The notes under the pieces: model-generated
What the model was told of the DNA's origin: nothing
What the model saw: the letters and a program-made list of their open reading frames with translations, nothing else
Databases searched by the model: none
Shown: positions 8,611 to 12,414 of the stretch, piece by piece
Layout of the letters: each line of letters begins with the position of its first letter
Numbering within the stretch: the stretch's first letter is position 1
DNA from: an uncultured archaeon
GTDB lineage: Archaea; Asgardarchaeota; Jordiarchaeia; Jordiarchaeales; Jordiarchaeaceae
Length of the DNA stretch: 12,414 nucleotides
Direction: 5' to 3'
Assembly (NCBI GenBank): GCA_964510585.1
Contig: CAZECW010000064.1
Span: 1-12,414, forward strand
Made by a program: the position numbers and the translations under genes

Positions 8611-9558
8611 ATGCCAGAATCAATAGAGAAAATGGCTTCCAGATCAAGCAGAGCTTTAGTTTTTGGAGTAGGCGGTGGCGGGGACATTCTGGGCACACTG
8701 CCAACAAGTGGATATTTGAATACTCTAGGAGTGGAGACAATTCTGGGGGGTGTGAGCTGGGAACGTATAGTTTTTGACCCAAAACCTGGCCCAAGATCGC
8801 TAGAGGAAATACAAAATATAGAAAAAATATCTGATAGCACCGCCTACACATGTAAAGACTCTCAAACCCGCGAAGGGGTGTACTTTCAGTGTAGCAACAT
8901 GGCTAATTTTCTTAATAAGAGGACAATAATTGTTGATGTTTCAAAAACCGCGAGGGAAATCTCAAGAGGGCTGCAGGAAACTGCGGAGAAACTTGACTTG
9001 AACCTAATAATTGGTGTAGATGTGGGAGGAGACATTCTAGCCAGCGGATCTGAGCCTGGGCTGAGGAGCCCCCTTTGTGATGGTACAATACTTGCCGCAC
9101 TCAGTTTACTGAAAATTCCAACAGCCATAGCTGTTTTTGGTTCAGGTTGTGACGGAGAACTTACACTAGATGAGCTTATTGGGAGGTACGAGCTTGTGGC
9201 CAAGAAATCTGGATATTTGGGTGCGCGAGGCATGACTCCCGATGATTTTTCAATTATGAGTAAAGCCGTAAAGTATGTTAAAACCGAAGCCAGCCTTCTC
9301 CCTCTAAAAGCTTGGAAGGGAGAGCACGGAGTTTTCAAGATTAGAGATGGTGCCCGTAGCGTAAATCTCTCAATCATCTCAACTATTAGCTTTTATTTTG
9401 ATACTAAGACTGTCTATAGTTTGAGCCCCATCGGGAAGGCTCTCAGGAATGCCAAAAATTTTCAAGATGCAAACAAAAGACTTCATAAACTCGGTCTAAC
9501 TACAGAGTACGACTTTGAGTTAAACTATCTGAAAAATGTTGACACTCTCCGCGACTAA
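8611..9558 (+). CDS. DUF1152 domain-containing protein (C-terminus altered by an inserted mini-element)
   Basis: G.GGGGD, GVDVGGD and G.G.DGEL motifs typical of DUF1152. The last codons (V/DTLRD*) lie inside the element at 9539-9817. Confidence 0.85.
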   Translation: MPESIEKMASRSSRALVFGVGGGGDILGTLPTSGYLNTLGVETILGGVSWERIVFDPKPGPRSLEEIQNIEKISDSTAYTCKDSQTREGVYFQCSNMANFLNKRTIIVDVSKTAREISRGLQETAEKLDLNLIIGVDVGGDILASGSEPGLRSPLCDGTILAALSLLKIPTAIAVFGSGCDGELTLDELIGRYELVAKKSGYLGARGMTPDDFSIMSKAVKYVKTEASLLPLKAWKGEHGVFKIRDGARSVNLSIISTISFYFDTKTVYSLSPIGKALRNAKNFQDANKRLHKLGLTTEYDFELNYLKNVDTLRD

Positions 9559-9735
9559 AGTTGCGGGGATTCTTGCTTCTGGCTCATCGGGAGCCTTAGG
9601 AAGCAATGGGTGTGCCATCACCCAGTTAGCACGCCCTTCCCTTTAGGGGAACGGCGTCTATGTTGGCACCCTCATGGGGGCTGCGTCTTGTTTAGCCTCT
9701 TAAAGCCCAAGCCAAACCTTTCAGCTACCAACAAT
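9519..9735 (-). ncRNA. Putative TnpB-type omega/reRNA (about 195-nt scaffold plus flank-derived guide)
   Basis: Consecutive stems at 9690-9717, 9666-9684, 9631-9657, 9607-9624 and 9575-9604, then the right-end hairpin at 9547-9568. Loop UGGCA (9613-9617) can pair with terminal UGUCA (9544-9540) to form a pseudoknot. The G-U pairs in the 9690-9717 stem and the pseudoknot work only on the minus strand. The 5' end is inferred from the TATA box and the 3' end assumes a ~20-nt guide. Confidence 0.65.
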
Positions 9736-9794
9736 CATCATCCTTTCCTACTTTCTTATAAGCTTTTTGGGCGATTCATCCCCGCGACTAAAGT
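9549..9794 (+). repeat. 13-bp direct repeat CCGCGACTAAAGT at 9549-9561 and 9782-9794 (cores of the right- and left-end TnpA-binding hairpins)
   Basis: The identical 13-mer is seen twice, each time centred in a hairpin with a TAAA/TTTA loop. Confidence 0.9.
9754..9770 (-). promoter_or_regulatory. Archaeal BRE + TATA promoter inside the mini-element, pointing into the RNA scaffold
   Basis: Minus strand CCAAAAAGC-TTATAA-GA: a purine-rich BRE directly followed by a TATA box (9761-9756). Predicted TSS about 9735-9730. Confidence 0.6.
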
Positions 9795-9842
9795 CGGGGG
9801 CTTTCTCGCCAAGGGTTGTAATAAAAGAACAAAGCATCCCAA

Positions 9843-10047
9843 ATGAAAATTATGCCCAACAACCCGGAAACCAAAAAAACAGTTATTAAACTCACCGAAA
9901 AAGGGGGGGTGACCGCCGAAAATACTCAAGAATAGTATAGGGTGCCGAGAAAGAAACTATTTTCCCCTGAGCGTAGAAAAAATGATAAACCAACTGGTAG
10001 CAGAAAAATCAGACTTAATGGTAAGACTAACTAACATGGGAAACTAA
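9843..10047 (+). pseudogene. Possible frameshifted remnant of a small (winged-helix-like) gene
   Basis: ATG 9843 overlaps TGA 9844-9846 (ATGA). It reads MKIMPNNPETKKTVIKLTEKGGVTAE, and continues ILKNSIG...MGN* after removing one A at 9919-9922. IKLTEKG..TAE resembles a wHTH wing/helix motif only. Confidence 0.22.
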
Positions 10048-10091
10048 AATAAAAATTGGAATGCTGCCCATGCCAAAAGGTCGTACCAGCA

Positions 10092-10694
10092 TTAATTGTT
10101 GCTCTGTGATTTTGAAGCATGTTCCCTGATAAATTCTCTTATGATGAATGTATATAAAACATTCAAAAGCGTGGCAGATAATAGTAACCAGAAAAATATT
10201 GATGTAATTTGTTCCGTGTAGAGAAAAACCCAACTTAGAATCCATCCCGTCGCAAACAAAAATATCATGATAAGGAGCATCGGACCCATAATAACCATTA
10301 GTTTTTTTCCACCACCTTTCCCCATAAGGAACTGCACAAGATTCTTCACGTCTCTGTACCTCTTGTATCCCTTAAGATCCTTTAACACCGAAACTAAGTG
10401 AATATCCCAAGCGAAAACAATGAACGACACCCAAGAAGCCACAAAAACAGCAATCAGAAACACCGTAAAAGGGGTGATTGTAGGATAGTTTGCAAAACTG
10501 TTAAAAGGTGTCAGAATATAGACAACTCTAAGTCCAACCGAATAGCAAAAACAAATAATCCAATTAGTTAATGGGATGATGAACATATTCCTAAGCGAAC
10601 AGCAGAAGAGAATAAGGGAACCAAGAAGGGGGAAAAAGGGCAAATACTTAAACCTATAGACAATTTTCACATCTTTATCGTTCCAATCAAACAT
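10092..10694 (-). CDS. Hypothetical integral membrane protein (about 4-5 TM segments)
   Basis: About 200 aa with several long hydrophobic stretches. RBS AGAGGAG is 9 nt upstream of ATG 10694 and abuts the alternative ATG 10703. Confidence 0.7.
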   Translation of the reverse strand: MFDWNDKDVKIVYRFKYLPFFPLLGSLILFCCSLRNMFIIPLTNWIICFCYSVGLRVVYILTPFNSFANYPTITPFTVFLIAVFVASWVSFIVFAWDIHLVSVLKDLKGYKRYRDVKNLVQFLMGKGGGKKLMVIMGPMLLIMIFLFATGWILSWVFLYTEQITSIFFWLLLSATLLNVLYTFIIREFIREHASKSQSNN

Positions 10695-10770
10695 ATTTTG
10701 CATCTCCTCTTAAAAGCAAGACTTTACCCAAAAAAGGGGAAAGGCTCGCCAACCTTTAAATTGCTATGCA

Positions 10771-11253
10771 TTACCCAAATGGGTTCGACACCCATACCCA
10801 ACGGAAGAAACCTAGGTTACTGTTATACCACGTGAGGAAACTGACATAGACACCTACAGTATCACCATACATGTAACAAACACCACTACTTGGACATATT
10901 TGAAGCACAATCCCATTATAATAAATAGTATGGAATGTTGTCCATGTCATAGGATCGTACCAGCAATAACCAGCCACCCAGTGAAATCTTTGGAAGAGCT
11001 GGAAACCATAACTGGGATCTCCTCTTGCATTGGCCGCGGCAGTAGTTGATATATCAACCCAAACAGATTCCAACATTCCGCCTCTAGGATATAATATTGC
11101 AGATATAATAAAGCTAGTTGCAGATATAACTGCACCAACTAGGTTAAAAGATACAAGACTAGCTGTTAGACCCATGGCGGATAGAACCATTGTTATGTCG
11201 TCCCACTCACTATACGCACCTTGTTGTACGAGGACAATAAATGCATTGTTTAG
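10771..11253 (-). pseudogene. Orphan C-terminal fragment of an unknown (membrane/secreted-like) protein, fused in frame to the DUF3368 tail as ORF 10771..11322
   Basis: Open frame with a hydrophobic segment (VLSAMGLTASLVSFNLVGAVISATSFIISAILY) and a W/Y/G-rich C-terminus. It has no own start or RBS, and the first ~23 codons of the called ORF are DUF3368-like. Confidence 0.5.
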
Positions 11254-11689
11254 GTAAAAACACATTCTTATCATTTCTGATAACAAGCGGTTGCCTTGTT
11301 CCTTCGAAATAATTTTTTCCACTCACAGCTAAAACCAGTTCACCTATCGTACCAGACACTGGAACACCGAACCTTTGAGCGTATTTTCTTGCATCTAAAT
11401 CATCTGTCAACATTCTAAATCCCCTAGTCAAGGCGATACAGGGAGGCTCTCCTCTTCCCAATGTACAAGCTAATTTGGAAAAACCTTTCTCTCCTCAGAA
11501 TTCATTTCCAAAACTTCTATTTGACCCAAATCTGAGGCTGGAAAAATTCCTCTCTTTACACCGAACCTTAACTCTTCAAACACTTCACGGGTTGTACACA
11601 GGTTAGCTACAGCTTTTTGAAGCAGATCCAACCTTTTTAATAAGTACAAAATTTGAAATAACGGTGGCGTCTGCGATCACTTTTCCCAT
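11254..11689 (-). pseudogene. DUF3368-family PIN-domain (VapC-like) toxin, frameshifted
   Basis: Joining frames gives MGKVIADATVISNFVLIK/RLDLLQKAV...TTREVFEEL.../..LGRGE..CIA...MLTDDLDARKYAQRFGVPVSGTIGEL...SG/KIISKEQGNRLLSEMIRM.FY. The frameshifts fall at homopolymers 11634-11638, 11479-11483 and 11313-11318. The gene overlaps the upstream UPF0175 gene by 13 nt. Confidence 0.85.
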
Positions 11690-12177: not shown

Positions 12178-12294
12178 ATGTTTGAAAAGTTTGATGCTGT
12201 GGTAGTTGGTGCGGGTCTTGGAGGTCTCTCTGCTGCGGCTACTCTTGCCAAGGGTGGACAGAAAGTACTTCTCCTGGACTATAGATTCGGATAA
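12178..12294 (+). pseudogene. N-terminal stub of an FAD/NAD(P)-dependent oxidoreductase (phytoene-desaturase-like Rossmann start), truncated
   Basis: [34 protein letters not shown] is a complete beta-alpha-beta GxGxxG motif. It is followed by YRFG* in unrelated sequence from about 12279. Confidence 0.85.
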
Positions 12295-12414
12295 ACTGGG
12301 CTTTTTTTCTGGTTGATCCTGCTTTTTGTAGCGTTTCTTGTGGGGCTGAGGGAAAAATAATGTAGGAGAACGACACGTATAAAGGATATGAAGCCGGAGA
12401 GACTCATTCTAATA
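12279..12414 (-). mobile_element. Probable right end of an insertion sequence (C-terminus of a DDE/IS4-like transposase) running off the window
   Basis: A minus-strand frame is open from the edge (IRMSLSGFISFIRVVLLHYFSL...PVYPNL*) with its stop TAG at 12281-12279, exactly where oxidoreductase homology breaks. The family assignment is by loose resemblance only. Confidence 0.35.

What the first reader, a model, noticed from the sequence alone, without database searches (positions are those of the whole stretch)
9539..9821. Complete IS608-type end code in an archaeal 279-bp mini-transposon
Seen: target TTAC immediately outside the left end, AAAG at +14..+17 abutting the left hairpin, GAAT at -34..-31 abutting the right hairpin, and terminal TCAA. 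The hairpins share a 13-bp core, and there is no target duplication. Established: Helicobacter IS608 uses exactly these pairings (AAAG guide with TTAC, GAAT guide with TCAA) for TnpA (Y1 HUH) single-strand transposition. Inference: both ends look functional, so the element should be mobilisable in trans and may be multicopy.
Basis: partly seen in the sequence, partly recalled or inferred. Interest (0 to 1): 0.7.

Follow-up and report, generated by a model that had tools for sequence, protein, structure and literature searches.

The report
Gene-less IS608-type mini-transposon in an archaeon
The flagged 279 bases are one of roughly 75-80 copies of a protein-less jumping element (an IS200/IS605 "PATE") in a hot-spring archaeal genome; it uses the same four-letter end signals as Helicobacter IS608 and carries a TnpB guide-RNA-like tail, which makes it a clean new example of a kind of element already described.

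Summary
The element is 9817->9539. TTAC lies just outside the left end, AAAG abuts the left hairpin, GAAT abuts the right hairpin, and the last four bases are TCAA.

It is far more than chance. The genome holds 29 end-to-end copies and about 94 left ends and 77 right ends. Nearly all left ends carry TTAC and AAAG, and all 77 right ends carry GAAT and TCAA. The DNA flanking different copies is unrelated.

Three other copies have precise empty sites in sister species (TTAC joined directly to the right flank, no duplication). At the window's own site the sister species show the exact right-end junction plus TTAC.

The genome encodes three Y1 HUH TnpA genes behind related left ends. Among solved structures their best match is IS608 TnpA.

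Positions ~93-279 are homologous to the 3' end of tnpB plus the right end, and their stems covary, so this part is an omegaRNA scaffold.

The element is therefore a homogeneous PATE: a new member of a known kind, of modest interest. This scan had already reached the same reading on other copies in this genome.

This particular copy has an atypical left tip and a weakened right hairpin. Beyond its TTAC, the left flank does not match the sister species.

The parts
9539..9817 (-). Whole non-autonomous IS200/IS605 element (PATE), 279 bp, left end at 9817 and right end at 9539
   Evidence: Boundaries are shared by 29 full-length copies. Precise empty sites for sister copies fix the family's boundaries. 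There is no conserved ORF: the median longest ATG-ORF is 27 aa.
9818..9821 (-). TTAC, the target and left cleavage site (CL), outside the element
   Evidence: TTAC lies 13-16 nt upstream of the guide in 92 of 93 left ends. It is present at the empty orthologous site in G003 and G001.
9801..9804 (-). AAAG, left guide (GL), at the 5' foot of the left hairpin
   Evidence: AAAG in 90 of 93 left ends. Same tetranucleotide as the IS608 GL (PMC5934647).
9780..9800 (-). Left subterminal imperfect palindrome: 4 bp, one bulged base on the 3' arm, 4 bp, loop TTTA. It is enclosed by an outer TTGGCGA/TCGCC stem.
   Evidence: Read directly. DNA fold -11.5 kcal/mol, z -2.8, includes the outer stem.
9751..9768 (-). 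A-rich stretch plus a TATA-like box, shared with the region upstream of tnpA in the tnpA-bearing elements. It is a candidate promoter reading into the RNA part (inference).
   Evidence: Alignment of left ends. This copy and its variant-B siblings lack the second TATATAAATA box that the majority carry at positions 78-87.
9539..9725 (-). OmegaRNA (TnpB guide-RNA) scaffold-like region, including the right end
   Evidence: Homologous to the last ~70 nt of tnpB plus the right end on contig C8 (73%) and to elements in other phyla. Three stems keep pairing through changes on both sides. The whole element folds with z -4.7.
9569..9572 (-). GAAT, right guide (GR), at the 5' foot of the right hairpin
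   Evidence: Precedes the hairpin in all 77 right ends that finish in TCAA. Same as the IS608 GR.
9547..9568 (-). Right subterminal palindrome; in this copy it is weakened by an A.C mismatch next to the loop
   Evidence: Top-strand DNA fold -3.3 kcal/mol, against -8.4 for the perfect variant and -6.7 for the majority. The same variant occurs in the copies on C65 and C19.
9539..9542 (-). TCAA, right cleavage site (CR), the last four bases of the element
   Evidence: 77 right ends finish in TCAA. The junction with the flank is exact against G003, G001 and a contig of run X14.
9519..9538 (-). The 20 nt following the right end, which would form the guide part of an omegaRNA read out of the element (inference). 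It is antisense to the end of the DUF1152 gene.
   Evidence: Position only. In sister species this sequence directly follows TTAC, i.e. TAM plus target of the empty site.
8611..9558 (+). DUF1152 gene. Its last codons and stop are supplied by the element (...NYLKN-VDTLRD*); sister species read ...NYLKN-GKSAGMG*.
   Evidence: Pfam PF06626 covers residues 16-305 of 315.

Best explanation
Window 9817->9539 (minus strand) is a protein-less derivative of an IS200/IS605-family insertion sequence of the IS608 type, i.e. a homogeneous PATE (palindrome-associated transposable element).

The element is moved in trans by the Y1 HUH transposase TnpA encoded by full-length relatives in the same genome. On single-stranded DNA, TnpA binds the two bulged subterminal hairpins. 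AAAG at the left hairpin foot pairs with TTAC, and GAAT at the right hairpin foot pairs with TCAA, and these pairings set the cut sites. The top strand leaves as a circle, the donor is resealed, and the circle inserts 3' of another TTAC without target duplication.

Element positions ~93-279 are the 3' end of a former tnpB gene plus the right end. This is the scaffold of a TnpB guide RNA (omegaRNA). If transcribed, it would read out into the flank and could direct a TnpB made elsewhere to the empty TTAC-plus-flank site.

Shown here: the anatomy, copy number, boundaries, empty sites, the presence of TnpA, and the homology and covariation of the RNA part. Inferred: the chemistry (by analogy with IS608), transcription, and use by TnpB.
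For: 1. All four tetranucleotides and both hairpins are present and match the published IS608 code.
2. Census of the genome: 29 full-length copies; 93-94 left ends, with AAAG in 90 of 93 and TTAC in 92 of 93; 77 right ends with GAAT and TCAA; unrelated flanks. About 77 left ends are of the PATE type.
3. Precise empty sites in sister species, with no duplication, for the copies at C33:43724, C72:9634 and C72:57278.
4. At the window site, G003, G001 and a contig of run X14 read ...AAAAATG|GTAA..., i.e. TTAC joined directly to the element's right flank.
5. The insertion is present in contigs of three hot-spring DNA runs from three studies.
6. Three tnpA genes (PF01797, 113-129 bits) lie behind left ends that are 90-96% identical to the PATE over about 65 nt.
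7. TnpA keeps the HUH motif and the catalytic Tyr. Its best solved relative is IS608 TnpA, 2a6m, E 9e-32.
8. A tnpB 3' end (PF07282) followed by a related right end occurs on C8, and the related right end alone on C45, C54 and C152.
9. The right part aligns with tnpB-3'/right-end regions here and in other phyla, with compensatory changes in three stems.
10. There is no conserved ORF.
Against: - No excision circle, donor joint or empty allele was seen in the same population. Only contigs were available, and they drop rare variants.
- No full-length element whose right part is more than 90% identical to the PATE was found. The tnpB-linked right ends in this genome are only 73% identical.
- The middle of the cognate tnpB is missing from the assembly, and one copy (C7) is frameshifted. 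An intact TnpB is therefore not shown.
- This copy departs from the family norm: a 13-nt spacer instead of 14, and a weakened right hairpin.
- Beyond its TTAC, this copy's left flank does not match the sister species.
Confidence: 0.9

Rival explanations
1. The family is mobile, but this particular copy is a fixed relic that TnpA can no longer move.
For: The G->A change in the right hairpin removes the three loop-proximal pairs on the active strand: -3.3 kcal/mol, z -0.5, against -8.4 for the perfect variant. The spacer is 13 nt where 78 of 93 left ends have 14. The insertion is present in three independent hot-spring runs dated 2017-2019, with no empty allele seen.
Against: The same right-hairpin variant sits at two other loci (C65, C19), so it has spread at least twice. 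The 13-nt tip is the one used by the left ends on C150, C71 and C67, which continue into the tnpA start codon and first codons. The right hairpin next to tnpB on C8 folds no better, at -3.2 kcal/mol. Spacing is also flexible in this family, ranging from 13 to 16 nt.
Confidence: 0.3
2. The copies spread mainly by RNA-guided TnpB cutting and homologous recombination (homing or gene conversion), not by TnpA transposition.
For: The element keeps an omegaRNA-like scaffold. Copies are mosaic: the window copy combines a variant-B left part with a left tip and a right hairpin seen in other lineages.
Against: Homing can only restore an element at a site that already held it. About 75-80 different TTAC sites with unrelated flanks need de novo insertion 3' of TTAC, which is the TnpA signature. 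An intact TnpB is not shown.
Confidence: 0.05
3. The repeat is a host-domesticated small-RNA or regulatory cassette (or a REP/RAYT-like repeat) kept for the cell's benefit, not a selfish transposon.
For: High conservation between copies (most columns above 90%) and a strongly structured RNA (z -4.7).
Against: It was not found in five sister species or in 300 sampled genomes of the phylum, so it is a recent lineage-specific burst. Insertion sites are empty in relatives. The ends are transposon ends with a cognate TnpA present. REPs are single short palindromes, not 279-bp two-ended units.
Confidence: 0.04

Closest known systems
IS608 (ISHp608) of Helicobacter pylori, the IS200/IS605 family paradigm
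   Same: - Identical four-letter code: TTAC/AAAG on the left, GAAT/TCAA on the right.
- Bulged subterminal hairpins, with the guides at the 5' foot.
- Insertion 3' of TTAC without duplication.
- The cognate TnpA's best solved relative is IS608 TnpA, E 9e-32.
- tnpA and tnpB lie in the same orientation.
   Different: - No genes: 279 bp, not the full-length two-gene element.
- The host is an archaeon from hot springs.
- TTAC lies 17-20 nt from the hairpin foot (19 in IS608), and the right cut lies 7-8 nt from the foot (10 in IS608).
- The hairpin sequences are unrelated to those of IS608.
Homogeneous PATEs of Haloquadratum walsbyi (Dyall-Smith et al. 2011, PMC3119063)
   Same: - An archaeal element too short to encode a transposase.
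- Near-terminal palindromes, no inverted terminal repeats, no target duplication.
- Copies more than 90% alike.
[quoted passage not shown]
   Different: The host phylum and habitat differ and the sequence is unrelated. Here the TnpA genes are intact, and the end code can be read fully against IS608.
PATE-like, omegaRNA-bearing non-autonomous IS605 elements of Geobacillus stearothermophilus (Meers et al. 2023 preprint, PMC10055086)
   Same: Minimal elements without protein genes that share left and right ends with tnpA/tnpB elements. They are predicted to be moved in trans and often encode omegaRNAs that would need a TnpB made elsewhere.
   Different: Those elements are bacterial. Their excision and the TnpB function were tested experimentally; nothing is tested here. 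The copy number here is higher for a single family.

Membership tests
IS200/IS605 family, IS608-like (non-autonomous derivative) | Subterminal imperfect palindromes at both ends and no terminal inverted repeats | tested here: met
   Both hairpins were read directly and folded. The termini AACCC... and ...GTCAA are not inverted repeats.
IS200/IS605 family, IS608-like (non-autonomous derivative) | Insertion 3' of a specific tetranucleotide, with no target-site duplication and a precise empty site | tested here: met
   TTAC precedes 92 of 93 left ends. Three copies have precise empty sites in sister species. The window site shows TTAC joined to the right flank in G003 and G001.
IS200/IS605 family, IS608-like (non-autonomous derivative) | Four-base guide at the 5' foot of each hairpin, matched to the cleavage tetranucleotide | tested here: met
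   AAAG/TTAC and GAAT/TCAA are nearly invariant across copies and identical to IS608. The actual pairing and cleavage are not testable with these tools.
IS200/IS605 family, IS608-like (non-autonomous derivative) | A cognate Y1 HUH transposase (TnpA) available in the cell | tested here: met
   Three PF01797 genes over the cut-off lie behind related left ends. HUH and the catalytic Tyr are present, and the best PDB relative is IS608 TnpA.
IS200/IS605 family, IS608-like (non-autonomous derivative) | Strand-specific single-strand excision as a circle with abutted RE-LE | not testable with these tools
   Only contigs of public runs could be laid. No raw reads and no bench work were available.
PATE (palindrome-associated transposable element) | Too short to encode a transposase; no conserved ORF | tested here: met
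   The element is 279 bp. The median longest ATG-ORF over 29 copies is 27 aa.
PATE (palindrome-associated transposable element) | Multicopy, with full-length homology above 90% (the 'homogeneous' type) | tested here: met
   29 full-length copies with most alignment columns at or above 90% identical. The window copy itself is 88-95% identical to the others.
TnpB omegaRNA (reRNA) module | Derived from the 3' end of tnpB plus the right end, in the same orientation | tested here: met
   Element positions 154-279 align with the last ~70 nt of the C8 tnpB ORF plus its right end. Positions 100-218 align with a Bathyarchaeota locus.
TnpB omegaRNA (reRNA) module | Conserved secondary structure supported by covariation | tested here: inconclusive
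   Six pairs carry two-sided changes in a 9-sequence alignment. Further compensated pairs in the TTGCTTC/GAAGCAA stem are visible by eye in the C8 sequence. The sequences are few and related. There is no Rfam match.
TnpB omegaRNA (reRNA) module | Transcribed, and bound by an intact TnpB | not testable with these tools
   No RNA run holds the stretch. The cognate tnpB is assembled only in pieces (N-terminal parts on C7, C169 and C162; C-terminal part on C8), and C7 is frameshifted.

The most novel reading that the evidence does not exclude
The ~75-80 copies form a dispersed library of promoter-bearing guide-RNA cassettes. Each reads out into its own flank and programs a TnpB made elsewhere against its own empty TTAC site. 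In that case a gene-less element would secure its retention, and perhaps cause breaks and rearrangements, in an Asgard archaeon. Two of the five copies examined sit at synteny breaks.
Probability: 0.25. Interest if true: 0.5.

Novelty: new member of a known kind. Interest (0 to 1): 0.3.

Why it matters
The element is a very clean natural test of the IS608 end code outside bacteria. The same TTAC/AAAG and GAAT/TCAA tetranucleotides are kept, almost without exception, over some 170 ends in an archaeon that earlier notes of this scan place among the Asgard archaea. I checked that placement only through archaeal gene content and a strong actin hit.

It also explains part of the fragmentation of this assembly, since many contigs end about 136-141 nt inside a copy. 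It marks recent, species-specific transposition: the element was not found in five sister species.

For annotation, it shows that the DUF1152 gene has a transposon-supplied C-terminus and stop codon.

None of this changes the known picture of IS200/IS605 elements and PATEs.

Tried and rejected
- **Rfam**: a scan of the whole window at E <= 1 gave no family.
- **RNA evidence**: no RNA holder was listed for the stretch. The one run labelled metatranscriptomic (X14) holds a related species with the empty site, not this element. Nothing can be said about expression.
- **Empty allele in the same population**: none was seen in contigs of X1-X3. Contigs cannot show rare variants.
- **Exact look-up of the C7 TnpA in public assemblies**: not on record.
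- **Direct parent (a tnpB element with a right part more than 90% like the PATE)**:
  - not found in the genome;
  - not found in 31 metagenome contigs carrying the right end, which are all PATE copies;
  - not found in sister genomes, whose TnpAs are at most 62% identical; the closed genome G005 has none.
- **Contig-end hits starting at element position 84, 108 or 123**: I suspected these were a longer parent. They are ordinary majority-type PATEs.
- **Ectopic recombination between two PATE copies as the cause of the foreign left flank**:
  - for the window copy, the orthologous downstream DNA lies at C65:169+ behind a different repeat, not behind a PATE left end;
  - for the C72:56543 copy, the sister-species DNA beyond the junction has no match in this genome;
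  - the idea is rejected in its simple form.
- **Search of 300 genomes of the phylum**: only left-end fragments in one sister genome. Only two candidates were scored per genome.

Full report
**What is in the sequence.**
- TTAC occupies 9821..9818 and the element runs from 9817 down to 9539 (279 bp).
- After a 13-nt spacer comes AAAG (9804..9801), directly at the foot of a hairpin of 4 bp, one bulged base and 4 bp with a TTTA loop (9800..9780).
- At the other end, GAAT (9572..9569) abuts a second hairpin (9568..9547). AGTG follows, then the terminal TCAA (9542..9539).
- The two hairpins share the 13-nt core ACTTTAGTCGCGG.
CL is TTAC, GL AAAG, CR TCAA and GR GAAT (PMC5934647). TTAC lies 19 nt 5' of the left hairpin foot and TCAA 10 nt 3' of the right one (PMC3201880).

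**More than chance.**
- The window's own genome has 217 contigs and 3.78 Mb. It gives 138 blastn HSPs to the element, 28-29 of them full length at 88-95% identity.
- Many other HSPs are 136-141-nt stubs at contig ends, so the repeat breaks the assembly.
- A pattern census finds 93 left hairpins. AAAG is at the foot in 90 of them, and TTAC lies 13-16 nt upstream in 92, at 14 nt in 78.
- 77 right ends finish in TCAA, each with GAAT at the hairpin foot.
- About 77 left ends are of the gene-less type. That is roughly 75-80 copies, or about 0.6% of the genome.
- Flanks are unrelated between copies. The only extra preference is T before TTAC, in 54 of 94.
- Copies have no conserved ORF: the median longest ATG-ORF is 27 aa.

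**Empty sites.** The closest sister species (G001, G003, G004) are about 88-97% identical in the flanking DNA.
- For the copy at C33:43724 they read ...CTCTTAC|CTACTCACTC, where G000 has TTAC, 279 bp, then CTATTCACTC.
- For the copy at C72:9634 they read ...GTTACTTAC|AGAAGCTCAAC.
- For the copy at C72:57278 they read ...GAAATTTAG|AATTT.
- These sites fix the boundaries: the element starts right after TTAC, ends with TCAA, and leaves no duplication.
- At the window's own site, G003 and G001 read ...CTGAAAAATG|GTAAAAGTGC on the plus strand, and so does a contig of run X14. On the element's strand that is TTAC joined directly to the element's right flank.
- Contigs from three hot-spring DNA runs of three studies bridge from the flank into the element at this site. 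Summed contig depth over the element is tens to hundreds of times that of the flanks. This fits a high copy number but is not a count.

**Who moves it.** The genome has three genes that pass the Pfam Y1_Tnp cut-off (C7, C169, C162).
- Each lies about 90 nt behind a left end of the form TTAC, 15-nt spacer, AAAG, hairpin. These left ends are 90-96% identical to the PATE over its first ~65 nt.
- The protein keeps the HUH motif (DHLHL) and the C-terminal Tyr (KYIETQ). Among solved structures its best match is IS608 TnpA, 2a6m, E 9e-32.
- tnpB follows tnpA in the same orientation. It is in frame on C169 as far as that contig reaches, and frameshifted on C7.
- A tnpB C-terminus (zinc finger and the last RuvC motif, PF07282) on C8 runs into a right end with GAAT, a hairpin and TCAA. 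The same right end occurs on C45, C54 and C152.
- The middle of this tnpB is not in the assembly.

**What the inside is.**
- Element positions 154-279 align at 73% with the last ~70 nt of the C8 tnpB ORF plus its right end.
- Positions 100-218 align with a locus in a Bathyarchaeota MAG. The terminal ~40 nt recur in Methanomethylicaceae, Elusimicrobiota and Nealsonbacteria MAGs.
- In the alignment, the stem GGGTG/CACCC becomes GGGCT/AGCCC or GGGGC/GCCCC. GACGCC/GGCGT becomes GGTGCC/GGCAC. TTGCTTC/GAAGCAA becomes TTGGAGG/CTTCCAA in the C8 element.
- This is what a conserved RNA looks like. It is also exactly the region that gives the TnpB guide RNA (omegaRNA) in characterised elements (Meers et al. 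preprint). RNAalifold counts six pairs with two-sided changes in only nine sequences, so I rate the structure as likely, not proven.
- The stretch between the left hairpin and the RNA part keeps the A-rich/TATA-like box found upstream of tnpA.
- Most copies also have a TATATAAATA box about 15-25 nt before the RNA homology starts. The window copy and its "variant B" siblings lack that second box. The siblings are the C98 copy plus five left-end stubs.
- Promoter function is inference only.

**Peculiarities of this copy.**
1. Its left tip (13-nt spacer AACCCTTGGCGAG) differs from its variant-B siblings. It equals the tip of the left ends on C150 and C71, which continue into the tnpA start codon and first codons.
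2. Its right hairpin is a G->A derivative of a perfect 7-bp variant. The predicted top-strand DNA stability falls from -8.4 to -3.3 kcal/mol. The same variant is at two other loci, so it has spread.
3. Beyond TTAC the left flank does not match the sister species.
   - Window 9822-11253 has no high-identity match in the five sister genomes searched; only short stretches match G003 at ~75%.
   - Its first ~400 nt have an 82% paralog at the end of contig C70, and that paralog begins exactly at GTAA.
   - The DNA that follows the site in sister species lies at C65:169+, behind another repeat family.
   - A second event (nested insertion or rearrangement) therefore happened at this TTAC. I could not resolve it.
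4. The insertion replaces the last seven codons of the DUF1152 gene with six codons and a stop from the element. This lies beyond the conserved domain.

**Distribution.** No full-length copy was found in five sister species, only left-end or hairpin-sized fragments. None was found in 300 sampled genomes of the phylum, though only two candidates were scored per genome. Sister TnpAs are at most 62% identical, and the closed genome G005 has none. This is a recent, lineage-specific burst. Earlier notes of this scan call the organism a hot-spring Asgard archaeon. My own checks show the following:
- archaeal gene content in the window (proteasome, NOG1-type GTPase);
- a 456-bit actin hit;
- hot-spring runs holding the DNA.

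**Comparison with what is known.** Gene-less IS605 derivatives with near-terminal palindromes, no inverted repeats and no duplication were defined as PATEs in the archaeon Haloquadratum. [quoted passage not shown] PATE-like elements that often encode omegaRNAs and need TnpA and TnpB in trans are described for Geobacillus (PMC10055086). IS200/IS605 is the commonest IS family in archaea and is present in more than 65% of Asgard genomes (PMC13343696). The element meets every PATE and IS200/IS605 feature I could test. It is a new member of a known kind. Other agents of this scan reached the same reading on other copies of this family, and my analysis agrees with them independently.

**Verdict.** Interest is modest (0.3). 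The element is a textbook-clean example, notable for its exact IS608 code, its high copy number and its host, but it is not a new mechanism.

Noticed in passing
window 9818-10224 and G000 contig C70:13307-13771: The DNA just outside the element's TTAC is itself a two-copy repeat (82% identity). Its homology starts exactly at GTAA in both places. Window 9822-11253 has no high-identity match in the five sister genomes searched (only ~75% partial hits in G003) and carries two ORFs without Pfam hits (10092-10703 and 10771-11322, minus strand). This suggests another mobile or duplicated segment ending at the same TTAC.
   Followed up: partly
G000 contig C65:1-166 (also the ends of C46, C178, C158, C62): A different repeat family, found at five contig ends, lies next to the DNA that follows the DUF1152 gene in sister species. 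The locus has therefore been split by at least two elements.
   Followed up: partly
L034:211-1884 (-) = G000 contig C81: A 557-aa ORF in which a TnpA-like N-terminal part that has lost the HUH motif but kept the Tyr helix is fused in frame to a full TnpB. It is either a decaying element or a natural TnpA-TnpB fusion.
   Followed up: partly
L059:3186-3413 (Bathyarchaeota MAG WUQV01000054.1): An omegaRNA-like scaffold with the same right end (GAAT, hairpin, TCAA). No adjacent tnpB and no recognisable left end were found. It may be a solo right end or a stand-alone guide-RNA module.
   Followed up: partly
L058, L060, L061, L062: The exact 24-nt right-end tail (hairpin 3' arm plus AGTGTCAA) occurs in MAGs labelled Methanomethylicaceae, Elusimicrobiota and Nealsonbacteria. 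That would mean the same end across archaeal and bacterial phyla, through horizontal spread or mis-binning.
   Followed up: no
L011:771-1044 (G000 C72:56543-56816): A second PATE copy sits at a synteny break. In G003 the left flank continues into 1.5 kb that has no match in G000, and the site there reads TTGC, not TTAC.
   Followed up: partly
window 12273-12414: The last ~140 nt of the window's contig are a further repeat shared with the ends of contigs C106 and C93. This is another assembly-breaking element.
   Followed up: no
L031:1-700 (G000 contig C7): The tnpB behind the C7 tnpA is frameshifted about 95 codons in, whereas the C169 copy is in frame over the same stretch.
   Followed up: yes
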